NCBI GenBank assembly: GCA_977862235.1
Contig: OZ374557.1
Span: 2,480,001 to 2,544,000, forward strand
Direction: 5' to 3'
From: Dudresnaya verticillata
Lineage: Eukaryota
Length of the DNA: 64,000 bases
Made by a program: the position numbers and the translations under genes. Under the pieces are notes generated by a model, which did not search any database, was not told the origin of the DNA, and was given only the letters and a program-made list of their open reading frames with translations. This document shows, in pieces, positions 31,538-63,100 of this stretch; position 1 is the stretch's first letter; the number at the start of each line of letters is the position of its first letter.

Positions 31538-31558
31538 CACGACTGGTACTGCTTGGCC
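31538..31558 (+). repeat. Putative 5' terminal inverted repeat CACGACTGGTACTGCTTGGCC
   Basis: Identical 21-mer at 47078-47098. Same-strand identity is expected for the 5' end of a plus copy and the 3' end of a minus copy. Confidence 0.65.
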
Positions 31559-37239: not shown

Positions 37240-40150
37240 ATGCCATCGAAAAAGAAGAAGGGAGTGGCGGTGAGGTCTGTATCCATCACAGGACAGACCT
37301 CATCAGACATAAGAGCGCCTGTATAATCTGGGAATGATAGAGTTCTGTTCGGAGATGTCGTTTATGGAGCTACGCACAAGCGAGTCGACCCTCGTTCATG
37401 TGTCCCGTTGACCTACGTCCGCCCGATCTGCAGGTCGGGCGTCGAGCGATTGAAGCGCATTTTCCGGGGGCCTGACCGGTACAGTTCAGGGACATTGAAG
37501 TCTTCCGGGGAAGGAGCTCCGGACTCTATCGGTTACGTGGCTGGAAGTGATATTCCTGTCATTGTGCCATTGACAGGGGCATTGAGAAGCCGTGTGTCCG
37601 ATTATTTCGGGTCACAAACAAGGAAGGACTGTACGCGTCGTTCCGAGAAAGAAGTTCAGGACATTGTGAAATCGAGGGGGAAATGTTACGGAGTAGTTCA
37701 TGGCATGCATAGATTGGCAGCTATTCGTGAGCTGCTTGAAGAAAACTACAACCGGTGGAAAACCTTTGACTGGCCCGTGCCGGAGCTGAACCCGCGGACC
37801 GACCTGGTGGTCCTGAAGCAATTCGCTAGACATCAGAATCGTAAGCGCGAGGCAAACTGCTTCGTGGAAACTACCCTGTATAACACATTGAAGGGTCTGA
37901 AAGATGAGGCTGATCGCCTTCAAGCGGAGGGAAATGGTATCAATCCGACAGCAAAAGCGGTTGCGTCCGCTTACGATGGGGGTGTTCATATGCACGAGAA
38001 CACAGTGAGGCAGACAGCGCAAGTAGCTCTCCGACTAAGTCATCGTGTCATCGATGCGATAGGGGAGATAATGGGGGAAGAAATACCGCAGCTTGCATTG
38101 GATTCACGAAGTGGAAGAACTGCTAAATCAGTAGCAGACGATGCCCTGATGTCGGCAATGTCGTCAATGACGCCGGGTTTTCCGGACGTTTATTACTCTG
38201 AACTCACTGAAGGCTGCCACAGAGTTCATGCGCGCGGGCCAAATGAGTGGCCTGGTGCATGATGAGAGTGTGGAAGTCCAAGTCTCGACACTCTATCGCA
38301 TTCGAGAAATATGCAGGAGGAACGGGTTCAGGCCCGTTCTTTACGGGGTCACCGAATCAGAGTTCGGGAAGGCTAAAGATGCGCTAGCAGAGGTTCGCAA
38401 ATTCGAAGGCCTTCGTGAATCTGGGGACTGTCCGGGTCCCATGGACACAATGCGGACAAATGTTCTGCGATCCCAAACGTTTGATGGCGATATCATGCTC
38501 AACAGGGGCAACGACACATTGATTTTGAAATGCATTCGGGATATGTGCAAGGACTGTTGTCCGGAAGAAGCACCCCTGAAGATTCACAAGTACCATTCTG
38601 TTAGAGAAAGGAACAGAAAGGAGTGCGATGAAGAGAAAAATTTGGACCGGGAGTGTGTGAATGAGATTACGACTGGAGTGCAAGATTAAGGGGGGGTCAA
38701 TTCCGATCAGGTAACAACTGCTGGAAACAAGGACCATCCCTCTGACGGACAGATCGAACACGATGACGTTCCCTCTCCTTCTGTGAACGTAGATTCGCTA
38801 CCTTGCAGTCGAGACCTCGGTTCTACCGGAGACCATCACAATCATGATGCAGGAGATGTGCAGGGATCGGCTATAAAATCTACTGTGACGGTGAGCACGG
38901 AAAAGTCGGAGAGGCTGGCTGTACGTGGGACAAGAACGGACCTGACGACCATTTGCAAGCTGATATCTTGAAGGCGTATAGAATAACCTGCCATCAGATG
39001 CGGTGGCAGGTATACAATAAGAATATTCGCGAGGGTGTTGGTGACCTATGCGACATAGTTTTTACCGACACACCGTATGGAACGCCTGCATCACAGTCTG
39101 ATGCAGGGAAACAGTACGTCAACTATATGAGTGATTCTGAAATATCCGAGCTTGCAGGAATGTGCAGGGAATCCGTTGTACCGGGAGGGTGGGTGTTCAT
39201 GTTCGTGTCCTACCAGACATTCGAACCTATAAGGCAGGCTCTTCTGAAGGCCGGTTTCACTTGCCCAACGTACGCCTTTTCGATTGCAAAGGATACACAC
39301 ATGGTGCAGGAGAGGCGAGGAAATGACTGTCCCCAAAATGGCCACGAAATTGCCGTAATGGGAAGAGCCCCAGGACAACACCCAGCGGATTTAAAGTGGA
39401 TCTTCGAAGCCCATATCAATTAGCGAAGGCTTCGGAAAAGAGAAAGTTTGCGTGCATATCTCAAATTCCCGTTTCTAAGAAGAAACGCCTTAAACCGGGT
39501 ACAAAATCACCGGTGCTTACTGAGGAGAAGAATGTTCAGCTGTTGGTGGAATTGTTGACGACCTTCTGCCCTGATGGGGGGCCATTTTGGACATGTATGC
39601 TGGAATGATGACAGCTGCAATTGCAGCCGTGCAGACTGGTAGGAAATGCACCTGTATAGAGCAAAGCCTACAGACATACAGGCTTGCAGTTGCACGCCTG
39701 AAAAGGATAGCAAGTGATCATCGCAAGTTGTCGGAAGGAATGGAAGGAACACCACTGTGCCATGGTACAGCGGAAGAGGCCCTGGGAGAGGACCAGGGAG
39801 CGGATGTGGAAAACCCGCAACAGAAACGGCTCAGGAATGAGGCGAAGAAAACTTCGGATTGTACTACTGGCGGCGATGCAGTTGTTCTATACGTTGGGAA
39901 GAACGCTGTTGGGAAGACAAAAGTCCAATTCGGGGCAAGTTCTGATGAAAACGTTCGCAAGCAGATTCATCTGAAACCCCTGTCAGAATACGAAAAGCCA
40001 GGACAGGAACTCATTGCGGTGTACGCCTTCGAATGTGATTCATCCTTTGCCACCTCAGCATATCCGTATAACTTTCATGTCCCGAACGGCCATCCTTCCA
40101 CGATTCTAAGTGAGCTAGACGGATTTTTTGCATGGGTATCCATCCGATGA
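37240..40150 (+). pseudogene. ParB-like domain fused to beta-class N6A/N4C DNA methyltransferase (left copy, disrupted)
   Basis: MPSKKKKG start; YGVVHGMHRLAAI; DIVFTDTPYG (motif IV); EKNVQLLVELL..FCPDGG/LDMYAGMMTAAIAAVQTGRKCTCIE (motif I region). Confidence 0.8.
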
Positions 40151-40630: not shown

Positions 40631-40835
40631 GCAATCGCGTGAAAACCTATCCAATATTATGGAGAATGACCAACAGCTTTTCGGAAAGCCGCCCGTAAAT
40701 TTCTATTAAACAGCACATACACTGTACGAGATCTGAAAAACTATGATAGGTTTTCCGAAACGCGAGTGCTCATGTGCTGTTTAATAGCTTTTTGATTCTC
40801 ACTGGTCGAAAAGCTGTAATAGGTTTTGCGATTGC
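40631..40835. repeat. Imperfect ~205-bp palindrome (mate 55943-56147)
   Basis: Nested inverted pairs: GCAATCGC..AAAACCTAT/ATAGGTTTTGCGATTGC, CAGCTTTTCG/CGAAAAGCTG, CTATTAAACAGCACAT/ATGTGCTGTTTAATAG. Confidence 0.85.
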
Positions 40836-41469
40836 CTCGGGCCAAACACCTTTTTGATAGAAACTACGTTTGCTCGACCCCAGGACCTATTCCATATTAT
40901 GGAGAATGCAAGATAGCTTTTCAGGTCACGCGGCATAGCTCTACAGGATCTTTTCCACGAGATTTATCGCTGAATCCCTTCTCGGAATTTTCTTTCGGAA
41001 CAGCTGGGTCCCTCCACCCGTCCGGTTGTTGGCCAGCGCCCTCCCAAACGCAATCGCAACCACACCGCCGCGTTTCGCTTCAACCGCCTCCCGCCCGCCC
41101 CCCGCAACGGGCGCCAGGTCGCGCCCCACCGCACCCCACCGACCCGCACAACTACTGTGCTTCCCGTCGCACTGCCGCACCACGCCCCGACGCGGTACCC
41201 CACGCAAACCCCACGCACCTCACGGGAAAGCGCGGCCCTCACACGCTGGGGTGCCGTGGCGAAGCCTCAGAGCGCATCGCGCTGCCCCACGCGGCGGCGC
41301 GCTGCACCTGGCCTCGTCCACCATCGAGCTGCCTTTTGACGCGTCCAATTTCATCTCATTCGCAACAAGACTATTGTGATATAACATAGGAGGCAGTTCG
41401 AGGTATCGTTACAGCTACTAGAAAGCCTCATGGCCATTCTCTGGCGATTCTTTTGCGCTTGGATGCGCT

Positions 41470-41614: not shown

Positions 41615-42200
41615 GGCGGTCGGCAAGCTTGGCAAAGAGAGCTGATAAAATGTCAAGAAGGAGATGGTTGTGGACAAGCGACTGGATGAAGCCGCCGCCG
41701 ACAAGATTGAAAACTTTGTTATGCTGAACGGCGACCCGTTGGAAATCTTAACGAAGTTGCGCGAACAAGCGGAATTGGCAGAGGCCTATGGCGAAGCTCT
41801 TGATGGAATGGAGACGCTTTTCAACTTGGTGGCAAGCATGCGCGAGGGGTAACCGCAGTGGCTTTCGTTTGATCTCCCGCTCGACCGTGGGCTGGAATAC
41901 TACAGTGGCGTCATTTTTGAGGCGGTCTTAGTCGACAAGAAAACGAACTTGGGCTTCATTGGCACTGGGGGTCGTTATAACAATTTGGTGGGCATGTTTC
42001 CTGAGTCGCGTTATACCGTGTGTTGGGTGCTCTCTCACATCAATGAGAACTGGAACATGGGAAAGCAGGTAACGCAGGCCATTACCCAAGGCATTACCCT
42101 CATGGTGGTTATCGGAGAGGACGAGATTGCGCAAGGTGTAGCAAAACGTAAAGTGCTGGCGACAAAGGCCGAGCAGACCATCCCAAGGGGAATAAGGCCC
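41615..42200 (+). pseudogene. Captured cytosolic histidyl-tRNA synthetase fragment (internally deleted)
   Basis: [57 protein letters not shown]. Confidence 0.85.
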
Positions 42201-42339
42201 AGTGTTTGCGCCCTTTCTTTCGAGAGGAGTGATCATCATTCATGGTCCTCTTCGATGCTCTTTGAATGGATGGCATCCCGAATTGCTGTCCAATGCTAGC
42301 TTTGTCTTCTTCGTGGGCCCAGTTCGGTTCTTACTCACC

Positions 42340-43100
42340 ATGTCCGATGTTTGTGGCCAAGCACAATCAGCAATGTTGAACCTACAAGCCAAACGAAGCC
42401 CGGAGGAAGTCCGTTGGTGTCAGATATATGTAAGTTGCAGTATTGGCTTGAAGTTGTCGAATTTCTGGTGGACTCACCTTTGTCATCTCAACCTAGGAGA
42501 ACCAGTTCAATCACTGTCCAACCCATGCGCTGAAATATTTTGTTTGCTCAGGTCGCGATTGGGTAGGCTCTGCAGGTGTTCAAAGTGCCCACGCTAGGAC
42601 AGCCGTATGAAAATATCAAAACAGTAATGGCAGCCAACCGAACAGGTAACCTTAGAGGTGCTTTGCGCCGTTTAGACTCATCTTGAGGAAGCTCTGCATT
42701 TTGGCAAGGGCTCATGCCGTGGGCCTGCATAGAGGCAGTAACGAAGAGAAGAGTGCCTCTCTTTGCGCAGAATGAGATGAAGAATCTCAAACAATAGGTG
42801 GGGATGGGACGTTTGCGTCTAGTGCCTTCGGCGGAATGGGTAGTGGAGTGTGCCAAGGCTACTACAAAATGGGGTTCTGTACGTTCATGAAGACAGTTCA
42901 AGTAACAAGAACAAAATGCGTTGGCGGTGGTCAGAAGAGCTGCATAGCTGTGGCTAGTGACATCTTGCGAAGGGAAGGAATCCTAGGGATTTACAAAGGC
43001 GTCAATGCTGTAGCGTTGTGGCAAGCAACGAATTGGGGATCTCACTTTCGGTTCTGCAGAGTTGTTGAGTCCATCATCCGCAGGAAGGATGGCGCCTTTT
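42340..43100 (+). pseudogene. Captured YHM2-like mitochondrial carrier 5' fragment with retained intron 42430-42551
   Basis: TLGQPYENIKTVMAANR, QGLMPWACIEAVTK, MGFCTFMKTVQVTR, GIYKGVNAVALWQATNWGSHF closely follow fungal Yhm2 motifs. GTAAGT...GCTCAG phase-0 intron. Confidence 0.85.
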
Positions 43101-44719: not shown

Positions 44720-47072
44720 ATGGCCCAAGCCTCATCTGGGCAGGTTTCGAAAGCAGGAAACGTTCCAGTTCAGAACGACGACGACTTCGGCGATGAGCTG
44801 CTTCCCGGAACAAAGCCCGGCGCACGAGTCATGCTCACTCTCAACGGGGAACACGTTGCTACAGCAACCCTGCTACGACCTCATGATTTTAGGGAGGGTG
44901 CCGTTGATCCCAGTGGTCGATTCGGCACATACCTGCACGGGCGCAACCTTGGGCCTCAACAACGTGATGGAGAAGTATGGGTTGTAGTTCACCTCGTGCG
45001 ATGCCTCCACAACTGCAATTCCTACGAAAACCTTTTCCAGTACAAACCAGGCAGTACGCCTTGTCCGGAGACACTGAGTCGAATGCAGACTGGAAAACAC
45101 GCCTGGGACCTATTCCAGATTGAGGATATCTTAACCATCTACAATACAGAGCGCAGAAAGAGCTCAGGTGCGACTGTCTCCAGAGTGGAAAAACGTGCGG
45201 TGGCTGACGCTAACCCACAAACACCCCCTCTGCTCAGGGTTCGCAAATCCGCTCCTCGCCCAAAACAGCAGCATGGTGCGGAAGAAATGGCAGCGGTGAA
45301 CAGCCCTTCAACACCACCGCCAGAGAAAGTCAATGAAGAGGAAGATGTCACAAAAATTCTGGAATACACACCTGTACGCCGGCCACCTATGCGTGAACGA
45401 CCCCAGAAACCATCCAAGAATAACGTCCCGGACGCCTTACCAGTCTCTTCGGCCCCAGTGTCTCTTGAACACACGACTAAACCCGTGGAAGAGAGATCCT
45501 CGTGTAGGCGGGACAGACAGAGGCGATGCAGATCTGAAACAAAACTCTGCTAGGGCTGTCGGATCTGCTAGGGCTGTCGGATCTGCTAGGGCTGTCGGAT
45601 CTATTCCTTCTCGAGGAAAAGGATCAAGCGACGAAGAGAACTGTATCACGCCCCAGCCATGCCCTGCACACAATGTCAGACGTACGCCTGAAAGCAGTTC
45701 TGGTTTTAGTAGTGGCGCACCAGAAACCGACCCTGATGCTACCCCGGCGTTGCCTGCGAGTACTAACACAAAGGGTGACGTGGAACGAACGCCAGGTGCT
45801 GATGGCTCGGAAATAGAGCACGGTGAGGAGCAATCAGATGCTGCGACGTTGGATCTGGTGAGCGACGCAGAGGTGGAAGGTGGAAGTTATGGAATATTAG
45901 AAGACGAAGATACTGGAAGCTACCAGGAAATTGAGGACCTCACCAAGGACGCGGATTACGTGCCGAGTGCGACAATTTCACGAAGACGCACGGCAGCATA
46001 CGAGGCTGAACGGATCCCCAAAACGCCCAGAGTTGCTGAGGATGAGACCAATGGCTCCCGAAAGAGAAGGTACCGCTTCTACGCAAGACAAAGAAAGAAG
46101 TTGAGGGTTGGTGATACTGCATTGCAAAAGCTTCGCAATGCTGCTCTGGAAAGGCTTGATGAAGAAGACTGGGGCTCCAAGGAGTGCTGCATGCGGAAGC
46201 AATGCTTCAAGAGGGTATCGATTGTGTACATGAAAGCCGAGATTCGCAAACTGTTGCGTATGGACGCCCATGATCGACGAACCTATTTGCACGGGTTGTT
46301 GCAGCGACCGGGATGGAATTATTACTTCGACGGCAAGCCAGTATGCTACACGTTCCTGGAGACGGCGTTTGGGTTTTCCAGGGACCTGCAATATTCAGTC
46401 AAACAGTTTGGTGGAAGCCGGCCTATGGATGGTGACAATGCCGTGCCGTATCAGCCTCCGAGTGAGGGCAGGGATAAGATACTAACTTACCTCAACCGGT
46501 TTGCTGAGATAACAGCAAGCTGCATGCCCGACGCAGATGAGAAGCATCTGCCGTACTTTGATAAGGCTGCGGTCTACGAGAACTTCCTTCTGGACCAGGA
46601 AAGACTGTATCCTGGAAAAGACCCGCCTCGACTAAACTACTTCTACCACGTCTGGAAGCAGCACCGCAGTGACATAAAAGTCCGCAAAATCCAACGCTTC
46701 ACAAAGTGTTCGGAGTGTGAAGAATTTCGTGCTGGACTGACCAGGGCCGGTACAAACCGCAGACTTGCGGAGCCGTTTCTGCTCCATAGAAAGGAACACT
46801 ACAAGCTGGTTACAAAGTAGAGGGTTTACTACAGGGAGAATACGGAAAAAGCTACTTTGTATCCCTCCGAGTACTGTTCACTGATAATTGATGGCGCGGA
46901 CCAGAAAGCGTTCGGAGTACCAAAGTTCTTGGTCAGCACGAAGGCTACGCGTGGACATGCCACAGCAACAAAAGTTGTAGGCGCATTGGAACAAGGTTCA
47001 TTGAAGCACCTATCCCTGTTCGTCACGACAGGAGAGTTTGAGACCAGCGCAAATCACATGATCGAAACAGTC
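44720..47072 (+). pseudogene. Sola-like DDD transposase, left copy, 3'-truncated
   Basis: ECCMRKQCF, VCYTFL, FTKCSECE, IIDGADQ; homology to the right copy stops at 47072. Confidence 0.75.
45546..45602. repeat. 18-bp tandem repeat x3 (SARAVG); mate 50720-50776
   Basis: TCTGCTAGGGCTGTCGGA repeated three times. Confidence 0.95.
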
Positions 47073-47077
47073 TGGTA

Positions 47078-47098
47078 CACGACTGGTACTGCTTGGCC
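47078..47098 (-). repeat. Putative 3' terminal inverted repeat of the right copy
   Basis: Identical to 31538-31558; lies 5 nt after the point where the left transposase breaks off. Confidence 0.65.
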
Positions 47099-47414
47099 CA
47101 GATTTACCCTGGCTCACCAGTATCACCCCTCCGTCTCGTGGCCATCATTCCACTCCGGGTCCAGTGCGGCGCCTGTGCCGCACCACCTCTACCGCCATCT
47201 CGCTTGCCATATCAGACTTCAAGCTCACCACACCCCACTGTCTACACCCGCCCATGCCGCCCTCCCCATCAAGCCGCGCACCTCGCGCACCTACTCTACC
47301 GCACCACGCAGGCATGTCAAAGTGCGCGTGAAGTCGTAGACTTCACATCTACGACATGCCCCGCCGCGGCGGTAAGTGTTGTGCGACTGGGGTAAAATTG
47401 AGCAGGTCCTGCTC

Positions 47415-48119: not shown

Positions 48120-51100
48120 CTACACAGAAGCTGGTAGCCTGCCATTCCTGGTGAGCGACTCGAACTCCACAAGTACGCAATCAACGGTGACGTCTTCTTC
48201 CCATTCCTTTGCGACCCCGCGCCTGGTTTTGTAGAACGAAGGTTTGTAAGATTCACTGAAAACATTACCGGTGTGCTTGGCTTCATACCACCGCAACAAC
48301 AATTTCGAAACCCTTCCGTCGTCCCCCTTCACAACTTGCATCACTTTTGCCACGTTAAAAGGACATTGCTCGGTTGCCTGAACATAATTGACGGCCACCA
48401 TTCTGTTGTGGCTGTAGGTTAGGTCCTGTGCGGGTAGTTGCTCCACTTCTGGTCTCTCCGGAAGCATTTCGGGGTCTCTATGCTGTCTACTGTCCCTTCG
48501 CAGCTTCCCATTCGTCTCCGGGGCGTGATCTAAGTCCCAGTGAAATGGTTCGTTTCGATCTCTATAGACGTGAACCCTAAGATTTTCCAGTTCGGTGATC
48601 TGCGACGCCTTCAGCGCTCGGACTTCAGTGCAACTTATGCGATCATTGACCTCCTTCATATCAGGTGGGCATCGCGCTATGGTCTCTGGCGTCTTAACGA
48701 GGTCAGGGGTGAATAGTATGAAGCTCTCCTGTTTGAGAGAGTTGCCACGTGCTTCTGTTACAAGTGGTTTCCACTCATCTCCACACTGAATCTTGACGAA
48801 GCATCGCGTGCGGAATCTCGCTTTTCTGCCCATTCCCTTACCACCTTGGCGAGTAATACGAAAGAATCTGTAGTGTGAGAATGCTTCAGTCTTTCCAATA
48901 CACGCATACTTGTCACACAGCCCGGAAAAGTTGGCTACCTGCAGCAACCTTGCCACCGATGGACGAGGCGTGTATGGCATGCTTAGTTCGCGGAGAAGGC
49001 AAGGCATGGTCGGGATGTCTTTTGATCGGACCCTCTTGCTTGTGCAACTTAAGGCCTGGTCGATGTCGGAATAGGTGTGGCCGATTGGGAGAAAGGAAAC
49101 CTGCACTTCATGCAGAACACCCCACGCGACTAAGCACTACAGTTAAGAAATCATGTACTTATTTTTTTCTCCCGGGTGCAGTTGTCTAGCTGCAGTAACA
49201 GCGTAGGCTGCAGAGTAACATGTTTATGCTTGACTGTGAGAAGGCGATGGACTGTTTTGATCATGTGATTTGCGCTGGTCTCAAACTCTCCTGTCATGAC
49301 GAACAGGGATAGGTGCTTCAATGAACCGTGTTCCAATGCGCCCACAACTTTGGTTGCTATGGCATGTCCACGCGTAGCCTTCGTGCTGACCACGAACTTT
49401 GGTACTCCGAACGCTTTCTGGTCCGCGCCATCAATTATCAGTGAACAGTACTCGGATGGATACAAAGTAGCTTTTTCCGTATTCTCCCTGTAGTACACCC
49501 TCTCCTTTGCAACCAGTTTGTAGTGTTCCTTTCTGCGGAGCAGGAACGGCTCCGCAAGTCTGCGGTTTGTACCGGCCCTGGTCAGTCCAGCACGAAATTC
49601 TTCACACTCCGAACACTTTGTGAAGCGTTGGATTTTGTGGACTTTTATGTCACTGCGGTGCTGCTTCCAGACGTGGTAGAAGTAGTTTAGTCGAGGCGGG
49701 TCTTTTCCAGGATACAGTCTCCCCTGGTCTAGAAGGAAGTTCTCGTAGACCGCAGCCTTATCAAAGTAGGGAAGATGCTTCTCATCTGCGTCGGGCATGC
49801 AGCTTGCTGTTATCTCAGCAAGCCGGTTGAGTTAACTTAGTATCTTATCCCTGCCCTCACTCGGAGGCTGATACGGCACGGCATTATCACCCTCCATAGG
49901 CCGGCTTCCACCAAACTGTTTTACTGAATATTGCAGGTCCCTGGAAAACCCAAACGCCGTCTCCAGGAACGTGTAGCATACTGGCTTACCGTCGAAGTAA
50001 TAATTCCATCCCGGTCGCTGCAACAACCCGTGCAAATAGGTTCGTCGATCATGGGCGTCCATACGCAACAGTTTGCGAATCTCGGCTTTCATGTACACAA
50101 TCGATACCCTCTTGAAGCATTGCTTCCGCATGCAGCACTCCTTGGAGCCCCAGTCTTCTTCATCAAGCCTTTCCAGAGCAGCATTGCGAAGCTTTTGCAA
50201 TGCAGTATCACCAACCCTCAACTTCTTTCTTTGTCTTGCGTAGAAGCGGTACCTTCTCTTTCGGGAGCCATTGGTCTCATCCTCAGCAACTCTGGGCGTT
50301 TTGGGGATCCGTTCAGCCTCGTATGCTGCCGTGCGTCTTCGTGAAATTGTCGCACTCGGCACGTAATCCGCGTCCTTGGTGAGGTCCTCAATTTCCTGGT
50401 AGCTTCCAGTATCTTCGTCTTCTAATATTCCATAACTTCCACCTTCCACCTCTGCGTCGCTCACCAGATCCAACGTCGCAGCATCTGATTGCTCCTCACC
50501 GTGCTCTATTTCCGAGCCATCAGCACCTGGCGTTCGTTCCACGTCACCCTTTGTGTTAGTACTCGCAGGCAACGCCGGGGTAGCATCAGGGTCGGTTTCT
50601 GGTGCGCCACTACTAAAACCAGAACTGCTTTCAGGCGTACGTCTGACATTGTGTGCAGGGCATGGCTGGGGCGTGATACAGTTCTCTTCGTCGCTTGATC
50701 CTTTTCCTCGAGAAGGAATAGATCCGACAGCCCTAGCAGATCCGACAGCCCTAGCAGATCCGACAGCCCTAGCAGAGTTTTGTTTCAGATCTGCATCGCC
50801 TCTGTCTGTCCCGCCTACACGAGGATCTCTCTTCCACGGGTTTAGTCGTGTGTTCAAGAGACACTGGGGCCGAAGAGACTGGTAAGGCGTCCGGGACGTT
50901 ATTCTTGGATGGTTTCTGGGGTCGTTCACGCATAGGTGGCCGGCGTACAGGTGTGTATTCCAGAATTTTTGTGACATCTTCCTCTTCATTGACTTTCTCT
51001 GGCGGTGGTGTTGAAGGGCTGTTCACCGCTGCCATTTCTTCCGCACCATGCTGCTGTTTTGGGCGAGGAGCGGATTTGCGAACCCTGAGCAGAGGGGGTG

Positions 51101-51602
51101 TTTGTGGGTTAGCGTCAGCCACCGCACGTTTTTCCACTCTGGAGACAGTCGCACCTGAGCTCTTTCTGCGCTCTGTATTGTAGATGGTTAAGATATCCTC
51201 AATCTGGAATAGGTCCCAGGCGTGTTTTCCAGTCTGCATTCGACTCAGTGTCTCCGGACAAGGCGTACTGCCTGGTTTGTACTGGAAAAGGTTTTCGTAG
51301 GAATTGCAGTTGTGGAGGCATCGCACGAGGTGAACTACAACCCATACTTCTCCATCACGTTGTTGAGGCCCAAGGTTGCGCCCGTGCAGGTATGTGCCGA
51401 ATCGACCACTGGGATCAACGGCACCCTCCCTAAAATCATGAGGTCGTAGCAGGGTTGCTGTAGCAACGTGTTCCCCGTTGAGAGTGAGCATGACTCGTGC
51501 GCCGGGCTTTGTTCCGGGAAGCAGCTCATCGCCGAAGTCGTCGTCGTTCTGAACTGGAACGTTTCCTGCTTTCGAAACCTGCCCAGATGAGGCTTGGGCC
51601 AT
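48120..51602 (-). pseudogene. Sola-like DDD transposase, right copy, full span but with stop and frameshifts
   Basis: IIDGADQ ... LQLDNCTRE(fs)NKY ... FLPIGHTYSDIDQ, preceded by Cys clusters. C-terminal beta-rich domain PFNVAKVMQV...LRWYE. Confidence 0.8.
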
Positions 51603-52366
51603 GTTCTACTACCCCTTTCGGTAGGGGAGTCTGAGCCTTTTGCAATTCACTAGTGCAAGATGCTCCTTGCACTCAGGGCGGGCGAAGTGAAGCAACAAAA
51701 TCGATGTTCCCGCTATGGCGCGATAGTTGTGCGCTACTTGTTCTGAAGAGCTGAAATATTCGGGAGGGCCGAGGGCGCTTCTGAAACGACACCGGTATAA
51801 TACTGTTCCAGTGGCGGTGGGGCGTTCTGCGTGACAGGCTTGCGCATGTCCAGAGTTGCTACGGATCGCAGTTAAAACGACTGGTATTAGAAGGGCTTCC
51901 CTCTCGCTCTGTATGCACCACTCCTTCCCGCCATACACTATAGCGCCAGTGCGAACAAAACAGTCTGATTCGAGAGACGAGCGTGCCATATTACCAATCA
52001 GAACGGACAAGTCGCGAATCTCGAGTCCCCGTCAATCAAGAAGCAGTACTCGGTATTGCAAGGGTACGCCCTGCAGACTGCTCTATTCCGCCATGCGACC
52101 ACAAGCGGGTAGTATTGATGGGCGTCAAGGATAAGAAATAGAATCGAGAGGGGCTGAGAAGTACGACCCCGGCTGCCGGCTGCGTTGATGTTTACGTCTC
52201 GATACCCCGTGATTTTTCTTGCAGAACAAGGACAAGTCTATCCAATGAGCTGCCGTGGGCTACAGCTGGCTTTTCGCCAGTTTGCGAACATGCACCAACC
52301 TGTGCATCAAGTACCAGTCTGCAAATTTGAAGTTCGCCGTGAGACAAACGTTCCAGACTCTACCTT

Positions 52367-53219: not shown

Positions 53220-53994
53220 TCAAAAGGCGCCATCCTTCCTGCGGATGATGGACTCAACAACTCTGCAGAACCGAAAGTGAGATCCCCAATTCGTTGCTTG
53301 CCGCAACGCTACAGCATTGATGTCAATGGCGTACGCCTTTGTAAATCCCTAGGATTCCTTCCCTTCGCAAGATGTCACTAGCCACAGCTATGCAGCTCTT
53401 CTGACCACGGCCAACGCCTTTTGTTCTTGTTACTTGAATTGTCTTCATGAACGTACAGAACCCCATTTTGTAGTAGCCTTGGCACACTCCACTACCCATT
53501 CCGCCGATGGCACTAGACGCAAACGTCCCATCCCCACCTATTGTTTGATATTCTTTATCTCATGCTGCGCAAAGATAGGCAGTCTTCCCTTCGTTACCGC
53601 CTCTGTGCAGGCCCACGGCATGAGCCCTTGCCAAAATGCAGAGCTTCCTCAAGACGAGTCTAAACGGCGCAAGGAACCTCTAAGGTTACCTGTTCGGTGA
53701 GCTGCCATTACTGTTTTGATATTTTCATACGGCTGTCCTAGCGCGGACACTTCGAACACCTGCAAAGCCGACCCAATCGCGACCTGAGCAAATAAAATAG
53801 CTCAGCGCATGGGTTGGAGAGTGATTGAACTGGTTCTCCTAGGTTAAGATGACTAAGGTGAGTCCACCAGAAATTCGACAACTTCAAGTCAATACTGCAA
53901 CGTACATATATCTCACACCAACTCACTTCCTCCGGGCTTGCTTGGCTTGTGGGTTCAACATCGCTGATCGTGGTTTACCACAAACATCGGACAT
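53220..53994 (-). pseudogene. Captured YHM2-like carrier fragment (right copy)
   Basis: VAIGSALQVFEVSALGQPYENIKTVMAA, RQATNWGS; intron donor GTACGT. Confidence 0.85.
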
Positions 53995-54139
53995 GGTGAG
54001 TCAGAAACGAGCTGGGCCCACGAAGAAGACAAATCTCGCGTTGAACAGCAATTCGGGATGCCGTCCATTCAAAGAGCATCGACGACGACCATGAACGATG
54101 ATCACTCCTCTCGAAAAAGGGCGCTAACACAGGGCCGTA

Positions 54140-55155: not shown

Positions 55156-55159
55156 GAGA

Positions 55160-55586
55160 AAATTGCTCGCCTTGCGCTCCACTGTTTGCTGCCCAGACGC
55201 CGAGCCATTCCCAACAGGACCATTCGTACTGCTGCCAGAGGAGGTCGCAGCGCTGGGCGCGTTGTTCACATCACGTACGTAGCTATGCAACCCTACCACA
55301 CCAGTGCCAAGTCCTGATTGCGGAGATATGTGATACAACACATCCAACGCAAAATCTCACAGCAACCGCTTCGCATCTTGCCCTGCGCTGCCGATGTGAT
55401 ACCGGTCGGGTACACTTAGAGATGCGTCCCACGCCACTGCACTGAACCAAGACGTATGCTTCTCTAACCACGCAACCAGCCGCTCCTCTGAAAGGCACCA
55501 GATCGAAACCAGACCATCTTCACCGCTCGTGGCGACATGCTTTCCATCTGGACTGCACGCAACGCATAAAAGGCCCCAATGTAGCT
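55160..55586 (-). pseudogene. Captured WDR20/DMWD/CreC-like WD40 fragment (downstream piece)
   Basis: GLLCVACSPDGKHVATSGEDGLVSIW...HTSWFSAVAWD...YHIGSAGQDAKRLL*D. Confidence 0.82.
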
Positions 55587-56597
55587 TCGGGGGCGTGGTG
55601 CGGCAGTGCGACGGGAAGCACAGTAGTTGTGCGGGTCGGTGGGGTGCGGTGGAGCGCGACCTGGCGCCAGTCGCGGGGGGCGGGCGGGAGGGGGTTGTAG
55701 AGAAACGCGGCGGTTCGGTTGCGATTGCGTTTGGGAGGGTGCTGGCCAGCAACCGGACGGGTGGAGCGACCCAGGTGTTCCGAAAGAAAAGTCCGAGAAG
55801 GGAATCAGCGATAAATCTCGTGGAAAAAATCCTGGAGAGTTATGCCGCACGACCTGAAAAGCTATCTTGCATTCTCCATAATATGGAATAGGTCCTGGGG
55901 TCGAGCAATCGTAGTTTCTATCAAAAAGGTGTTTGGCCCGAGGCAATCGCAAAACCTATAACAGCTTTTCGACCAGTGAGATTCAAAAAGCTATTAAACA
56001 GCACATGAGCACTCATGTTTCGGAAAACCTATCATAGGTTTTCAGATCTCGTACAGTGTATGTGCTGTTTAATAGAAATTTACGGGCGGCTTTCCGAAAA
56101 GCTGTTGGTCATTCTCCATAATATTGGATAGGTTTTCACGCGATTGCAGTAATTTCAGAACTGCGGGCACTCGTCCCGCGATGAGACGCAAGTTTATTGC
56201 TCGAGTGCACCTACCTGCAAATCGAAGCTCTCGATATTCTCACAGTGCTGTGACCCGACCCGCCTCGCTACTACTACTCTACCGGGCCGTGGATGCATCA
56301 TTCCTCTAGATGCTTTTTGGCAGATCTTCCATGCCGCTCGACCTTCATCCCATGCTCTGCAACAGCTACAATTCGATGGAACTCTGCAGATCCGACATTG
56401 TGAAAGAGAAGTTGCTGCAGAAATGGGACCGAGTGATGATGCAACTTTTGCGCTGTGGACTTCTACTGGGATAGCGCTGTCGGTGGCAGTACATGCTCTC
56501 CAGCGAGGAGTAGCATGTGATTATGGCTTACGATATTGCGCTATGGCGTAGGAAACTAGTGAAGAGAACAATTATTATGCTCAACTCTGCTTTACCC

Positions 56598-59532
56598 TCA
56601 TTTCTGGTTCCACCGCTCCTGGGCTTTCATCGGATGGATATCCCATGCAAAAAATCCGTCTAGCTCACTTAGAACCGTGGAAGGGCGGCCGTTCGGGACA
56701 TGAAAGTTATACGGATATGCTGAGGTGGCAAAGTATGAATCACATTCGAAGGCGTACACCGCAATGAGTTCCTGTCCTGGCTTCTCGTATTCCGACAGGG
56801 GTTTCAGATTAATCTGCTTGCGAACGTTTTCATCAGAACTTGCCCCGAATTGGACTTTTGCCTTCCCAACAGCGTTCTTCCCAACGTACAGAACAACGGC
56901 ATCGCCGCCAGTAATACAATCCGAATTTTTCTTCACCTCATTTCTGAGCAGTTTCTGTTGCGGGTTTTCCACATCCGCTCCCTGGTCTTCTCCCAGGGCC
57001 TCTTCCGCTGTACCATGGCACAGTGGTGTTCCTTCCATTCCTTCCGACAACTTGCGATGATCACTTGCTATCCTTTTCAGGCGTGCAACTGCAAGCCTGT
57101 ATGTCTGTAGGCTCTGCTCTATACAGGTGCATTTCCTACCAGTCTGCACGGCTGCAATTGCAGCTGTCATCGTTCCAGCATACATGTCCAAAATGGCCCC
57201 CCCTCAGGGCAGAAAGTTGTCAACAATTCTACCAACAGCTGAACATTCTTCTCCCCAGTAAGCACCGGGGATTTTGTACCCGGTTTAAGGAGCTTCTTCT
57301 TAGAAACGGGAATTTGAGATATGCACGCAAACTTTCTCTTTTCCGAAGCCTTCAATAATTGATATGGGCTTCGAAGCTCCACTTTAAATCCGTTGGGGTG
57401 TTGTCCTGGGGCTCTTCCCATGACGGCAATTTCGTGGTCATTTTGGGACAGTCACTTTCTCGCCTCTCCTGCACCGTGTGTGTATCCTTTGCAATCGAAA
57501 AGGCGTACGTTGGGCAAGTGAAACGGGCCTTCAGAAGAACCTACCTTATAGGTTCGAATGTCTGGTAGGACACGAACATGAACACCCACCCTCCCGGTAT
57601 AACGGATTCCCTGCACATTCCTGCAAGCTCGGATATTTCAGAATCACTCATATAGTTGTCGTACTGTTTCCCTGCACCAGACTGTGATGCAGGCGTTCCA
57701 TACGGTGTGTCGGTAAGAACTATGTCGTATAGGTCACCAACACCCTCGCGAATATTCTTATTGTATACCGGCCACCGCATCTGATGGCAGTTTATTCTAT
57801 ACGCCTTCAAGATATCAGCTTGCAAATGGTCGTCAGGTCCGTTCTTGTCCCCACGTACAGCCAGCCTCTCCGACTTTTCCGTGCTCACCGTCACAGCAGA
57901 TTTTATAGCCGATCCCTGCACATCTCCTGCATCATGATTGTGATGGTCTCCGGTAGAACCGAGGTCTCGACTGTAAGGTAACGAATCTACGTTCACAGAA
58001 GGAGAGGGAACGTCATCGTATTCGATCTGTCCGTCAGAGGGATGGTCCTTGTTTCCAGCAGTTGTTACCTGATCGGAATTGACCCCCCTGAATCTTGCAC
58101 TCCAGTCGTAATCTCATTCACACACTCCCGGTCCAAATTTTTCTCTTCATCGCACTCCTTTCTGTTCCTTTCTCTAACAGAATGGTACTTGTGAATCTTC
58201 AGGGGTGCTTCTTCCGGACAACAGTCCTTGTACATATCCCGAATGCATTGCAAACTCAATGTGTCGTTGCCCCTGTTAAGCATGATATCGCCATCAAACT
58301 TTTGGGATCGCGGAAGCTTTGTCCGCATCGTGTCGATGGGACCCGGTCAGTCCTCAGATTCACGAAGGCCTTCGAATTTGCGAACCTCTGCTAGCGCATC
58401 TTTAGCCTTCCCGAACTCTGATTTGGTGACCCCGTAAAGAAAGGGCCTGAACCCGTTCCTCCTGCATACTTCTCGAATGCGATAGAGTGTCGAGACCTGG
58501 ACTTCCACACCCTCATCATGTACCACGCCACTCATTTTGGCCCCCGCGCATGAACTCTGTGGCATCCTTCAGTGCGTGCAGAGTAATAAACTTCCGGAAA
58601 ACCCGGCAGTCCATCGACGACATTAGGGCATCGTCTGCTATTGATTTAGCAGTTCTTCCATTTCGTGAAGCCAATGCAAGCTGCGGTATTTCTTCCCCCA
58701 TTATCTCCCCTATCGCATCGATGACACGATGACTTTGTCGGAGAGCTACTTGCGCTGTCTGCCTCACTGTGTTCTCGGGCATATGAACACCCCCATCGTA
58801 GGCGGACGCAACCGCTTTTGCTGTCGGCTTGATACCATTTCCCTCCGCTTGAAGGCAATCAGCCTCATCTTTCAGACCCTTCAATGTGCTATACAGGGTA
58901 GTTTCCACGAAGCAGTTTGCCTCGTGCTTACGATTCTGATGTCTAGCGAATTGCTTCAGGACCACCAGGTCGGCCCGCGGGTTCAGCTCCAGCACAGGCC
59001 AGTCAAAGGTTTTCCACTGGTTGTAGTTTTCTTCAAGCAGCTCACTAATAGCTGCCAATCTATGCATGCCATCAACTACTCCGTACCATTTCCCCCTCGA
59101 TTTCACAATGTCCTGAACTTCTTTCTCGGAACGACGCGTGTAGTCCTTCCTTGTTTGTGACCTGAAATAATCGGACACACGGCTTCTCAATGCCCCTGTC
59201 AATGGCACAACGACAGGCGTATCACTACCAGCCACGTAACCGATAGAGTCCGGAGCTCCTTCCACGGGAGACTTCAATGTCCCTGAACTGTACCAGTCGA
59301 TCCCCCGGAAAATGCGCTTCAATCGCTCGACGCCCGATCTGCAGATCGGGCGGACGTAGGTCAACGGGACACATGAACGAGGGTCGACGCGCTTGTGCGT
59401 AGCTCCATTAACGACATCTCCGAACAGAACTCTATCATTCCCAGATGATACAGGCGCTTTTACGTCTGCTGAGGTCTGTCCTGTGTTGGATACAGACCTC
59501 ACCGCCACTCCCTTCTTCTTTTTCGGTGGCAT
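56598..59532 (-). pseudogene. ParB-like domain fused to beta-class N6A/N4C DNA methyltransferase (right copy, disrupted)
   Basis: MPPKKKKG; WYGVVDGMHRLAAI; DIVLTDTPYG; LDMYAGTMTAAIAAVQTGRKCTCIE. Confidence 0.82.
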
Positions 59533-59937
59533 ATTTCTCAGGCTATCGTGTGCACCGGTAACCCGACGTTCTGGATGGGATGTCTGAATGAATTCTGACT
59601 ACTGCCTCTGTCGGACACAGCTTTCCGCCCTTGCTCCATACATGCATGTACAACGTTTCCCACTGCATGAGAGAAAGAATGTGCATTAAATTAAAACTAT
59701 GTGACTCAGCCGCTGTCATTGACCTCATCTGCTTGTGCATGGATTCCGCTCATACCAATCGTGGACAGATACATGCTGCAGTCTCGGTACTAAACTCTCC
59801 AGTCTCAGGACTGCGAAATCCGACCAGGATGTAACTACTATGAGGGGTCTGCAGTACAAGAGAGATCCGGGCTGCAGTCCGTACAAGTAGTCCTATGCTA
59901 CCCAAAAAACGGGCTGCGAGATATTCACGACCAAGCC

Positions 59938-60810
59938 ATGCGCATGGTTGCGAGTTGCAGGTCATACGATTGTATAGGTATAGTAATTTGTATTGAGCTC
60001 CTATTCACACTCAAGGTTAGACCACGCGTTGGCGCCAACTCGGCACCAACCGAAACTGTCTCGGGTGACTATGGTGACACTGCGTATCTTGATGCCTCTC
60101 TGTACATTTGTGCAGAAATGCCTGCACCCGTAAAGTCGGACTCTCCACCCTTTTGTCCACAAATCATGAGCGCTGGAATCTCGAAACCAGGCGTTTCACA
60201 GCCACCCGTACTCATTCTAGCGAATGCCCAGAGGTTGCACCTATTCCGTGGAGTACTACTGTTAAAAATGTCGTCGCACAATGCTTCTGGAGGGAGAGAA
60301 GAAGTCGACAACTTACAAGGCGAGACCCTGAACCTACACGATTTTAAGAACTCGGGAGGAGAGAGCTTAAAGGATGCAGTCGAGCGTATGGGAGAGGAGA
60401 GGCTTGTGGGTATAGTCAGTCGGGCAAGACAGCGTCAGATGCGTATCGTCGGGTTGGAAGAGCTAGGAATACGTCTCTATGACATGTCTTTTTTCAAAGC
60501 GTTTCATGAAAGGGTGTACGGCGTCAGCGGAATTGAAAGTGCAGACCTCTCTGTCTCTCAGCAGTACTTCGACGGAAACTATAAGTTCAATTACAGAGGA
60601 AAGAAATTTTATGAGCGGCGGAGGATAGAAAGGCTGACTCTGCTGGACCTATGGAAGGGCCCTCACTGCGGATGTATGGATGGTGAGGGAGATAAGTCCG
60701 AGGAAAATCCGCGGCGCCTAGCGAACCTGATTAGACGTAGCACCGGGTGCTGCGTTCATGTGCCATTCTTGAAGAAAAGGATACAAGACCTGAAAGAAGC
60801 ATCGGAGTGA
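59938..60810 (+). CDS. Orphan ORF (right copy of 35944-36708)
   Basis: Open frame conserved in both arms; true start probably internal. Confidence 0.55.
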   Translation: MRMVASCRSYDCIGIVICIELLFTLKVRPRVGANSAPTETVSGDYGDTAYLDASLYICAEMPAPVKSDSPPFCPQIMSAGISKPGVSQPPVLILANAQRLHLFRGVLLLKMSSHNASGGREEVDNLQGETLNLHDFKNSGGESLKDAVERMGEERLVGIVSRARQRQMRIVGLEELGIRLYDMSFFKAFHERVYGVSGIESADLSVSQQYFDGNYKFNYRGKKFYERRRIERLTLLDLWKGPHCGCMDGEGDKSEENPRRLANLIRRSTGCCVHVPFLKKRIQDLKEASE

Positions 60811-62621
60811 TGGCGTTAGCCAACAGTTTGATAAAGTTCTATTTCCTGTGTCCTAATAGTGGGAGTATACAACCTAACCATTTGTGACTACTATCACATT
60901 CATTATTTCACTGCTCCTGTAATATAACGACTGCGTTCATCATACGGAACAGTATAGGACAATTTTGTTTCATGGGGACGAGTACGTCTACTACTTGGAC
61001 GACAGTCTCTGGATCCTCTGACGGATTAAAGCAGGGTGACGGGATCAGTTTCTGTACTAGCATCGTCGTACTGTGGATCAATTTCCGTCGTCTTCGTAAC
61101 AGTCTGATTAGTATATTACGTCATTAGTCAGGTGACATCATAATGTACGCATGGTATTGAGCTGTGCAGATAAACCCGGAACGACCCCTGATGATTCAGC
61201 AGACACTCCCTGCTATAAAAGTAATTCGCGAGGGCCTCAGCGCCATCGGTGGCCATGGTGTTCAGTAGGAACCGTACAGGCATAACGTTAATACGGTCAA
61301 GCGTTTCGACCCCTATTTGTCCCTAAGAGACCCCGCTCCGTTAAAACCGTACAGTGGCGTAACTGCGCATAGTATTCCATTTTCTAACCCGTGTCCGTCA
61401 TCCAACAACATCCGTAATACTATAATAACGCGTGCGTCAGACACAGAGCACTTCCCGACAATACAACATCGCAACTGTTGCGGTCAGTTTGCTCTTCGTT
61501 CTAACTGTAACATTCTTGAGCAGAAAAATCGTGGACATGGATTTACTGGTCATATAAAACATAGTTGCTGCAGCAAGGATACTGCTGCATGTTGCACAAA
61601 GCGCTCCTCGTCTATGCAACCAAACATTTCACCAACCATGTCTATTGTTAGCGTGGATCGCGACGGGGCACCATTCGATGGAAAATGCCAGGACGAGTCA
61701 ATTGAGGATCGCCTTGATGCCATGTTCAAAACACTTGACGGGAGTTTGTCCATGAAGATGGCCCGAAAGTCGAGGCAGTGAGCTCACGAAGCTTTGAGTG
61801 AGTCAGGCATCGAACTGGCCGAGGGCAGGGACAGTGAAGCTTTTCAACGTTTCTGCCAGAATCTGTCGCAAGCTGAAGCGCGAAACCACAGACACGAGAC
61901 AAGGCGTCTTAGCGAATTATATCGCCTACTACGCCGAAAAGTCCGAATGGTGAAGGAGGGAAGCTATGCAGGGGAAATGCTCTGTTACTGGAATCTTATA
62001 TATTTGAGACAGTCCACGGGGCTGGAGAAGAGGTTTTTCATTTGGACCGGTTCTGCCGTCTATTACTCAAGACCAGATATGTAGAGATGAATGAAAACAC
62101 CGCAAGGGAGATGCGGTTGCTGCAAGTCAGGCATCTCACAGTTCAGGTCAACAATTTGACTCTAATGTACGAATGAGGCGCTCCGTGAAGGTATTAGCAG
62201 CAGTAGTACTACTACCGCAAAGAAGAAAAGGTAATAACGATTGGGTAGTCTGTGGTTTCCTTGCTTTGAGAGCTCAGGGGTTCTTTTCCTCTTCCCATAC
62301 ATTAAAGACTGCAAGAAAACCGCTGGCACTGCATTGTCCAACTTTTACCCAGCAACAGGTACCTTCATCCCCAGAAGTAAACTGTGACGACATCCGCGTG
62401 ACATACGAGCATTCCAAAATACTTCGAGAGGAGGTCCAACAAATGCAACGTATGGTGCCAGGTGCACAGATCGAGGAATTGGTGCCATGACATATTGCCT
62501 TTTGTGAACGTCACAGCGAATAACAGGACTTGGACTTTTCCATGTAGATGAGCAGAAAAGCATTTCCATTACTGTCGACATTTATCTCTTGAATTGACGC
62601 GCCCAACCCCTGCTGAGATAC

Positions 62622-62999
62622 TTGTTCCAACTCCACCCGGTGATCGGCTTTGTCTGCGACAGTCCACAGTCTATAGAATTAAAGATGGAAGTCGACCTGC
62701 ATCCCCCATCACAGCCAACACCTACCATGACCCGCAACGCAATCCGACAAGCATACGAACAAGTGGTACTACTTCGCATCGATGTGCGCGCCCAGCGCGA
62801 CATCGTGAAGGACTGTTTAAGGGAGGCTCGCGAGTGCATGGAGGAATTCAAATTCCTCATGCACTGCTACCGCCACTTGAGGCGGGAAGCGACGGCGGTT
62901 AGGACAGCTGTCGCCAGAGCTGTGCGCTCGGTATGCGCGGAGCTGTGGAGCTGCACAAACCCCTTAAGCAGCGAAGATGAAGAGGAGTTAATAGTGTAG
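62622..62999 (+). CDS. Small helical orphan ORF (right copy)
   Basis: Mate of 33762-34133. Confidence 0.4.
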   Translation: MFQLHPVIGFVCDSPQSIELKMEVDLHPPSQPTPTMTRNAIRQAYEQVVLLRIDVRAQRDIVKDCLREARECMEEFKFLMHCYRHLRREATAVRTAVARAVRSVCAELWSCTNPLSSEDEEELIV

Positions 63000-63100
63000 T
63001 GAGAATGTCAAGTGATAGCAATGAATAGATAGAGTAGAAAAAGGGGTTGAGTAAATTTACTGAGGCTGATGAACTCTTTTATGAACGCACTTCCCGCTTG

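What the first reader, a model, noticed from the sequence alone, without database searches (positions are those of the whole stretch)
56598..59532. NLS-bearing ParB-like + beta-class amino-methyltransferase fusion in a eukaryotic mobile element
Seen: N-terminal PKKKK, a ParB/Srx-type DGxHR motif, then motif IV (TDTPY) upstream of motif I (LDMYAGTMT, followed by GRKCTCIE). Known: this motif order defines beta-class N6-adenine/N4-cytosine methyltransferases (N6_N4_Mtase family), and ParB-MTase fusions are typical of phages and prophages. Inference: a prokaryote- or virus-derived enzyme adapted for the nucleus, and a potential source of 6mA or 4mC. Both copies are decayed but mostly at different sites, so a ~970-codon protein can be reconstructed. 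DTPY instead of DPPY/SPPY is shared by both copies.
Basis: partly seen in the sequence, partly recalled or inferred. Interest (0 to 1): 0.85.

Follow-up and report, generated by a model that had tools for sequence, protein, structure and literature searches.

The report
Broken ParB-methylase gene in giant transposon
Two broken copies of a gene that joins a predicted bacterial-type DNA-clamp domain to a DNA-methylase domain sit in what is likely a giant algal jumping gene; intact relatives would likely mark the element's own DNA, an idea already proposed in print for a brown seaweed.

Summary
The fusion is real. Both copies (59532-56598 minus; 37240-40150 plus) are dead: 6 and 7 breaks, one shared, dN/dS 0.90. 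Intact single-ORF relatives of 887-1010 aa align over the whole gene, within a family of 301 clusters (E<=1e-30). A confident model of one relative (pLDDT 84) has a ParB/Srx core with a likely helix-turn-helix, a beta-class amino-methyltransferase like CcrM (Z 24), and a ~97-aa C-terminal module that also opens the neighbouring DUF7869 transposase gene (E 3e-13). The gene is most likely the accessory gene of a ~18-kb Sola-like DNA transposon: an independent contig links the same two genes, and a palindrome array lies 460 bp downstream. DTPY is not a family signature (0 of 106 rows); close relatives have DPPY, which points to 6mA rather than 4mC. This architecture and context are already in print for Ectocarpus Sola1-1. 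Added here: family breadth, structure model, shared module, candidate binding sites, and 31 of 53 long relatives lacking the catalytic motif while keeping SAM-site residues. Best mechanism (inferred): site-loaded, cis-acting self-methylation of the element.

The parts
56598..59532 (-). Copy B of the ParB-HTH + beta-class MTase + C-terminal-module gene; pseudogene, 4 frameshifts and 2 stops, 978 aa when intact
59512..59532 (-). Start codon and basic patch MPPKKKK (candidate NLS, untested)
   Evidence: basic patch ahead of the ParB domain in 21 of 53 long relatives, no chance control
58549..59430 (-). ParB/Srx-fold nucleotide-binding domain (R..., DGMHR, R-x-x-N) and inferred helix-turn-helix region
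57050..57860 (-). Beta-class amino-methyltransferase domain: motif IV DTPY 57700-57711, motif I DMYAG 57174-57188
56620..56910 (-). C-terminal ~97-aa beta-rich module, homologous to the N-terminal module of the transposase gene
   Evidence: E 4.8e-19 here; 2.9e-13 in the transposase ORF
55856..56137 (.). Array of 8 half-sites GAAAASCTRT, including the perfect palindrome 56023-56043; candidate parS-like site, 460 bp beyond the stop
37240..40150 (+). Copy A of the same gene; pseudogene, 5 frameshifts and 2 stops
40641..40922 (.). Copy A half-site array (8 half-sites)
48120..51605 (-). DUF7869 (Sola-like by recall) transposase gene of the right arm, broken; opens with the shared ~97-aa module
   Evidence: 31-32% identity to the L001 transposase
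44720..47072 (+). 5' part of the same transposase gene in the left arm, cut at 47072
41616..43100 (+). Host gene fragments between methyltransferase and transposase (His-tRNA synthetase, mitochondrial carrier); mirrored at about 53300-55000, with a WD40 fragment at 55360-55580 in the right arm only
47074..47282 (.). Candidate right terminal repeat of element B, followed by 68-bp and 334-bp subterminal repeats (47409-47929)
   Evidence: 65-74% similar to 31538-31779; local score 130 against shuffle max 95
31538..31779 (.). Candidate left terminal repeat of element A
59794..63100 (+). Further decayed ORFs of the element, divergent from the methyltransferase gene; no family hit (mirrored at 33661-36741)

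Best explanation
The finding is a dead copy of a ParB-fold plus beta-class methyltransferase fusion gene that was likely the accessory gene of a giant (about 18 kb) Sola-like DNA transposon in a probably algal genome, and whose intact product would likely load on the element's own palindrome array and write 6mA on the element in cis. Shown: the fusion, its decay, intact single-ORF relatives, the neighbouring DUF7869 transposase gene, the shared ~97-aa module and the array. Predicted: the three folds and their packing into one unit. Inferred: (1) nuclear import through the basic N-terminus; (2) a dimer reads the 21-bp palindromes with its helix-turn-helix, and a nucleotide bound in the ParB pocket gates loading or spreading, as in ParB/KorB; (3) the DPPY methyltransferase methylates adenines near the loading site, so the mark is confined to elements that carry the array; (4) the mark keeps the element transcribed or licensed for its transposase (anti-silencing or self-recognition), with the shared module tying the two proteins to the same partner or chromatin. 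Two copies landed tail to tail, the right one cutting the left one's transposase, and have decayed neutrally since.
For: Intact relatives P0001, P0002, P0010-P0014 and P0016 span the whole gene as single ORFs. PF01555 above cut-off in 41 of 50 scanned relatives, chosen mostly as the longer hits. Model pLDDT 83.7, pTM 0.78. Methyltransferase matches CcrM (Z 24.1, rmsd 2.9, 230 aligned), M.BceJIV, MboIIA and M1.HpyAVI ahead of the N4C enzymes (Z 19.5). N-terminus matches PadC (Z 9.4, rmsd 3.0, 97 aligned), sulfiredoxin and KorB, and a Pnob8-like ParB over residues 28-369 (Z 9.5, rmsd 4.5, 216 aligned). Pocket residues are conserved: R54 90/93, D146 92/102, G147 100/102, N192 96/110. L001 has a relative head-to-head with a DUF7869 transposase homologous to the window's. 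Shared module E 2.9e-13. All 10 exact half-site matches in 64 kb lie in the two arrays; inverted repeats 5-6 against shuffle means of about 0.5, and L001 has its own cluster, 7 against 0.49. The same fusion is in Ectocarpus Sola1-1 (PMC12477816), and inverted-repeat arrays flank ParB-type PAG3 genes in Bostrychia (10.1101/2025.02.11.637652). dN/dS 0.90 over 919 codons.
Against: No activity, binding or methylation was measured. 31 of 53 long relatives lack a canonical or near-canonical motif IV, including the L001 relative next to a transposase, so methylation is not needed by many members. The window lineage itself has DTPY. In a phage ParB-activated dioxygenase, mutating the nucleotide-pocket residues did not impair activity (PMC13229309), and 17 of 28 purified ParB-fold proteins showed no NTP binding (10.1101/2025.10.10.680097). 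The half-site motif was chosen after seeing the array; in the unbiased inverted-repeat scan of the window the array bins tie with an unrelated bin (5 each). L002-L004 show no clear cluster, but hold little flank. About 5 kb of host fragments and a break in arm homology separate the gene from the transposase, and the two parts diverge differently (95% against 96-100%). No target-site duplication is visible, and the host lineage and the Sola label come from no call.
Confidence: 0.55

Rival explanations
1. The protein works mainly as a sequence-specific DNA clamp or base-gripping pseudo-enzyme that shields or represses the element; methyl transfer is dispensable, and DTPY marks the window lineage as one more switch-off.
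For: Whole clades of long open frames carry EPPx, AIP-, DPFQ and similar motifs. These 31 proteins keep motif I Asp 31/31 and motif II acid 30/31. Inactive methylase domains as DNA binders are proposed for DIRS1 (PMC4738411) and DndH (PMC10853773).
Against: The window's five nearest long relatives keep DPPY and DGMHR. The degenerate group also tends to lose the GxxR arginine (6/31 against 18/21; only two or three independent clades), which suggests the intact form couples both activities.
Confidence: 0.25
2. The enzyme writes N4-methylcytosine, like rotifer N4CMT or PvuII.
For: Same fold: N4CMT and PvuII at Z 19.5. Several viral structure matches are annotated as cytosine-N4 specific. Motif IV does not fix the target strictly (own knowledge).
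Against: First residue of motif IV is D in 46, E in 32 and S in 4 of 105 rows. The best sequence and structure matches are N6-adenine enzymes.
Confidence: 0.1
3. The gene belongs to a separate mobile unit or a viral/phage insertion that happens to lie next to the DUF7869 transposon.
For: Break in arm homology at 41188/55590 and different divergence of the two parts. PAG genes move between transposon families. Phage-like architecture.
Against: Same order and orientation in both arms; independent linkage in L001; module shared with the transposase. No capsid, terminase or polymerase hit among the ORFs scanned. No relative in two viral-contig scans or one prokaryote-genome scan (low sensitivity). 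Phage matches cover only the methyltransferase domain (25 rows shown of 113 records, 25-31% identity).
Confidence: 0.07
4. The gene is intact in the organism and the breaks are sequencing errors.
For: 7 of 14 single-base indels between the arms fall in runs of 4 or more, as does the shared break; the window has a 37-G run.
Against: Four in-frame stops and dN/dS 0.90, indistinguishable from neutral (p 0.73).
Confidence: 0.03

Closest known systems
Accessory gene of Sola1-1_Ec32, Ectocarpus (PMC12477816; passages and one supplement row seen)
   Same: ParB-like domain plus N4C/N6A methyltransferase in one ~1000-1100-aa protein, inside a giant (21.5 kb) Sola-1 transposon with a long imperfect terminal repeat; the authors propose self-binding and self-modification. 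L001 has the same opposite-strand layout.
   Different: Here the gene lies on the transposase's strand with host fragments between, is dead, and has a third module shared with the transposase; the candidate ends do not start with AACCG. Sequence homology to the Ectocarpus protein could not be tested (FASTA supplements unreadable).
Plavaka accessory genes PAG2 and PAG3 of red algae (10.1101/2025.02.11.637652; passages and section 8 seen)
   Same: PF01555 methylase and ParB-like domain carried by giant algal DNA transposons; inverted-repeat arrays next to the ParB gene.
   Different: There the domains are in two genes (methylase+SET; ParB+2OG oxygenase). Here ParB and methylase are fused, no SET or 2OG hit was found, and the transposase is DUF7869-type.
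Phage ParB-N6N4 methyltransferase fusions (10.1101/2025.10.10.680097, PMC4738411; passages seen)
   Same: Domain order and folds; top viral structure match A0A6J5MMM5, 494 aa, aligned across both domains.
   Different: About twice as long, with an added helical region, acidic linker, basic N-terminus and C-terminal module; eukaryotic transposon context; sequence similarity limited to the methyltransferase domain.
CcrM, M1.HpyAVI, M.BceJIV (beta-class N6-adenine DNA methyltransferases)
   Same: Fold, motif order IV then I, DPPY in close relatives.
   Different: They have no ParB core; the target sequence here is unknown.
VANC proteins of VANDAL transposons (as described) and rotifer N4CMT (structure 8s9m; biology recalled)
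   Same: Works like: a transposon-borne factor proposed to bind and epigenetically alter its own element (VANC); a prokaryote-derived beta-class enzyme in a nucleus (N4CMT).
   Different: VANC removes 5mC, and no homology to it was found or tested; N4CMT is a host gene with SPPY and a chromodomain (recalled).

Membership tests
Beta-class N6/N4 DNA methyltransferase (PF01555) | Catalytic motif IV precedes SAM-binding motif I | tested here: met
   DTPY 57700-57711 precedes DMYAG 57174-57188 on the minus strand
Beta-class N6/N4 DNA methyltransferase (PF01555) | Profile score above cut-off and beta-class fold | tested here: met
   41 of 50 relatives above 26.7 bits; window fragments only 14-15 bits each; CcrM Z 24.1
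Beta-class N6/N4 DNA methyltransferase (PF01555) | Canonical (D/N/S)PP(Y/F/W) motif in the window copies | tested here: not met
   Both copies DTPY; canonical in 17 of 53 long relatives, including the five nearest
Beta-class N6/N4 DNA methyltransferase (PF01555) | Methyl transfer to adenine N6 or cytosine N4 | not testable with these tools
   needs an assay
ParB/Srx nucleotide-binding fold | Fold | tested here: met
   PadC Z 9.4, Srx 8.1, KorB 8.0, SerK 7.6; Pnob8-like ParB Z 9.5. Z values are moderate, but all top N-terminal matches are of this superfamily
ParB/Srx nucleotide-binding fold | Box II GxxR motif | tested here: met
   GMHR in both copies; G 100/102, R 50/103 across the family
ParB/Srx nucleotide-binding fold | Sequence match to ParB profiles | tested here: inconclusive
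   No ParBc hit; weak DndB (E 5e-4), DGQHR (0.017) and PHROG ParB-like (0.029) hits in some relatives
ParABS-type ParB CTPase clamp | CTP binding, dimer clamp, parS loading, ParA partner | not testable with these tools
Giant Sola1 DNA transposon | Sola-type DDD/E transposase | tested here: inconclusive
   DUF7869 hit with acidic motifs DGADQ, LDNC, GHTYSD; equating DUF7869 with Sola is recalled; no reference sequence or defining paper was available
Giant Sola1 DNA transposon | Terminal inverted repeats | tested here: inconclusive
   A ~240-bp imperfect match between the left end of A and the right end of B in the expected orientation; AACCG is not at these ends
Giant Sola1 DNA transposon | 4-bp target-site duplication | not testable with these tools
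   each copy lacks one end; no whole genome is held
Plavaka PAG2 / PAG3 | Methylase fused to SET; ParB fused to 2OG oxygenase | tested here: not met
   No SET or 2OG Pfam hit in 52 relatives; ParB and methylase are in one chain
N4C methyltransferases (PvuII, N4CMT) | Serine first in motif IV (SPPY) | tested here: not met
   S in 4 of 105 rows, one SPPS and no SPPY
Phage ParB-methyltransferase fusion | Encoded in a phage or prophage | tested here: not met
   Flanked by Gypsy retroelements, EMC1 and a eukaryotic-type transposase; no full-length phage match

The most novel reading that the evidence does not exclude
Algal giant transposons carry a complete, phage-derived ParB/parS-type system in the eukaryotic nucleus: a nucleotide-gated sliding clamp that loads at an element-specific palindrome array and drags a 6mA writer along its own element, wired to the transposase by a shared module; several lineages have since kept the clamp and SAM site but dropped catalysis, becoming methylase-mimic shields.
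Probability: 0.3. Interest if true: 0.85.

Novelty: new member of a known kind. Interest (0 to 1): 0.5.

Why it matters
Transposon-borne ParB-methylase genes have been noted in brown and red algae as predictions. If they self-mark their elements, they are a second route to sequence-specific anti-silencing besides VANC, a source of non-MT-A70 6mA in eukaryotes, and a ParB-type switch working in a nucleus. This locus is dead, but it yields what a test needs: intact DPPY relatives, a confident model with pocket residues, a candidate 21-bp site and natural catalytic-dead clades as controls.

Tried and rejected
No whole genome is held, so copy number, intact genomic copies and target-site duplications could not be checked. 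No sequencing run was listed (no evidence either way). Viral contigs gave no relative, prokaryote genomes none; alignment queries there had no usable pattern. The C-terminal module has no Pfam hit and no Atlas hit and was not folded alone, so its fold is open; a likeness to DUF8039/TnpA-type or Tudor/PWWP-type barrels is recalled only. Atlas on the N-terminal half gave unnamed phage and bacterial clusters (0.93-0.94) and DUF3723 (0.92), leads only. 'DUF7869' occurs in no searchable paper. PMC12636532 and PMC12695648 held nothing relevant in the passages searched. Earlier scan findings: none. CpG transitions between the arms are only mildly raised (7.0% against 3.2-4.5%) and say nothing on 6mA or 4mC. 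In the tree run, one linker segment of copy A was read in the wrong phase; A and B still group at support 1.0. The tree has no prokaryotic outgroup, so it names no donor.

Full report
OBSERVATION. Copy B runs from ATG 59532 to TGA 56598-56600 on the minus strand; copy A (37240-40150, plus) lies in an inverted duplication, 33661-41188 against 55590-63100, 95% identical. Copy B has four frameshifts (about 58538, 58089, 57448, 57195) and two stops (58347-58349, 57541-57543); copy A has five frameshifts and two stops. One break, in the G-run just before motif I, is common to both. With net indels removed the gene is 978 codons plus stop. Over 919 aligned codons, pN/pS is 0.90 (binomial p 0.73 against neutrality), so both copies have been dead since they split. 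Seven of 14 single-base indels between the arms are in homopolymer runs, so some breaks may be sequencing errors, but the four stops and the neutral divergence are not explained that way.

THE PROTEIN. A search with the first ORF for longer proteins gave two intact relatives of 1010 and 944 aa; a second search gave nine. They align over the whole window gene, which settles the fusion. A profile of eight of them found 301 clusters at E<=1e-30 among 1.84 billion representatives (best 150 listed). PF01555 is hit by 48 of 50 scanned relatives, 41 above cut-off; none has a SET or 2OG hit. A model of P0010 from 150 sequences has pLDDT 83.7 and pTM 0.78, which suggests that the domains pack together. 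Residues about 550-800 match CcrM (Z 24.1), M.BceJIV (23.0), MboIIA (22.2) and M1.HpyAVI (21.9), ahead of N4CMT and PvuII (19.5); the best sequence match among solved structures is M1.HpyAVI (E 1.4e-18). Residues about 30-200 match PadC, sulfiredoxin, KorB and SerK (first model), and a Pnob8-like ParB aligns over 28-369. By eye the order R - GxxR - RxxN - TxxD - two helices follows the ParB pattern with a helix-turn-helix (pattern recalled). These residues are among the best conserved in the family. The best viral structure match is a phage ParB/Srx protein aligned across both domains; by sequence, phage matches cover only the methyltransferase domain. A prokaryotic or phage origin is therefore likely, but no donor was tested. 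A third, ~97-residue beta-rich module ends the protein in 29 of 156 family sequences and in both window copies, and the same profile hits the start of the window's transposase gene at E 2.9e-13, with no other hit among 1623 frame segments.

DTPY. Across 106 rows covering motif IV, DPPY is commonest (24) and DTPY never occurs; T is absent from that position. In a tree of 52 long relatives plus the two copies (one long relative lacking the ParB domain left out), the copies group with P0001, P0010 and P0011 (0.97) and then P0009 and P0012 (0.99), all DPPY and DGMHR. DTPY is one base from DPPY and comes with the shared frameshift, so the simplest reading is a lesion in the common ancestor of the two copies. 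D at the first position and the N6-adenine matches favour 6mA. Against a simple enzyme story, only 17 of 53 long relatives are canonical, 5 near-canonical and 31 degenerate; the 31 keep motif I Asp (31/31) and the motif II acid (30/31) but mostly lose the GxxR arginine (6/31). They form a few coherent clades, so these counts are not independent events.

THE ELEMENT. The window is eukaryotic: Gypsy elements with a chromodomain, EMC1, WD40 and carrier fragments. The lineage is not shown; red alga is my inference. Both arms read in the same order: unknown ORFs, the fusion gene, a palindrome array, host gene fragments, then a DUF7869 gene with acidic motifs DGADQ, LDNC and GHTYSD. The right arm keeps the whole broken transposase (51605-48120) and subterminal repeats; the left one is cut at 47072. 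The stretch at 47078-47282 resembles 31538-31779 in the orientation expected for the right end of B and the left end of A, which gives about 18 kb. In a metagenome scan, 4 of 189 pattern matches encoded relatives. L001, the only one with enough flank, has a DUF7869 transposase head-to-head with the relative, 31-32% identical to the window's over about 760 residues. That DUF7869 is the Sola family is recalled, not tested.

THE ARRAY. 460 bp past the stop lie eight half-sites GAAAASCTRT in 282 bp, some paired as 21-bp palindromes. All 10 exact matches in the window are in the two arrays; shuffles of the same 300 bp give 0.09 on average, but the motif was chosen after the fact. A motif-free count gives 5 and 6 inverted repeats against shuffle means near 0.5 (0 of 200 reach it), though one unrelated 500-bp bin of the window ties at 5. 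L001 has its own cluster with another sequence (7 against 0.49); L002-L004 show none clearly and hold little flank.

MECHANISM. Most likely, the intact product entered the nucleus, bound the array as a dimer, used the ParB pocket as a nucleotide switch to load or spread, and methylated adenines on its own element, keeping it active or licensed for the transposase. The anatomy is shown or predicted (about 0.9); the cis self-methylation role is inferred (about 0.5). The strongest rival is a clamp or pseudo-enzyme for which methylation is optional. Two papers temper the switch: 17 of 28 purified ParB-fold proteins bound no NTP and specificity cannot be predicted (10.1101/2025.10.10.680097, passages), and a phage ParB activator of a dioxygenase did not need its pocket residues (PMC13229309, passages).

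WHAT IS KNOWN. [quoted passage not shown] The Bostrychia preprint (passages and section 8) has the two domains in separate genes (PAG2, PAG3), with inverted-repeat arrays beside PAG3. PMC6431247 (passages) notes 16-20-kb Chondrus elements with 4-5 ORFs. PMC4738411 (passages and section 8) lists other eukaryotic clades tied to phage ParB loci; I did not see this fusion in those parts. Iyer 2011 and Bao 2009 were not read. Ten searches listed no paper that I could see testing such a protein or describing the shared module, the degenerate clades or this family's breadth; subscription journals and unread supplements may hold more.

VERDICT. Real; a dead new member of a kind that is already in print as a prediction. 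Interest 0.5: not surprising as an architecture, but the intact relatives, candidate site and natural dead clades make an open idea directly testable. If the clamp-and-spread reading holds (0.3), interest would be 0.85.

Noticed in passing
window 33661-63100: The region is one 29-kb imperfect palindrome made of two tail-to-tail copies; 43184-46183 and 50139-53138 are 100% identical while the outer arms are 95% (gene conversion, or an assembly effect).
   Followed up: partly
window 41616-43100 and 53300-55580: Captured host gene fragments (His-tRNA synthetase, mitochondrial carrier, WD40) that differ between the arms, Pack-MULE-like.
   Followed up: partly
relatives P0016-P0097 (family alignment and tree): Large clades of long open frames with degenerate motif IV (EPPx, AIP-, DPFQ) keep the SAM-site residues and tend to lose the ParB GxxR arginine too; EPPx recalls the inactive METTL14 motif (recalled).
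   Followed up: partly
window 45546-45602 and 50720-50776: An 18-bp tandem repeat (3.2 copies) lies at the frame change between the N-terminal module ORF and the rest of the transposase, in both arms.
   Followed up: no
window 31349-31400: A second small palindrome cluster (AAACTTTCG units) ahead of a GC-rich tract, laid out like 40640-41190 but with another sequence; possibly the array of a related family.
   Followed up: no
window 1-9004, 17495-26522, 29818-30732: Two inverted 9-kb Gypsy LTR elements (97% identical) with a chromodomain after the integrase, and a solo LTR.
   Followed up: no
window 63101-64000: Sequence that cuts the right arm; its minus-strand translation looks like the C-terminal part of a LINE reverse transcriptase (recalled; no Pfam hit).
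   Followed up: partly
L001 3504-3698: Cluster of long palindromes (16-bp perfect and 27-bp arms) between the transposase and the ParB-methylase relative, unrelated in sequence to the window's array.
   Followed up: partly
window 10688-12451; 13715-13751: EMC1 gene fragment or exon only 27% identical to its best hit; a run of 37 G nearby.
   Followed up: no
P0010 residues 25-440: Atlas features link the N-terminal half to fungal DUF3723 proteins (score 0.92), which I recall as accessory genes of Starship elements.
   Followed up: no
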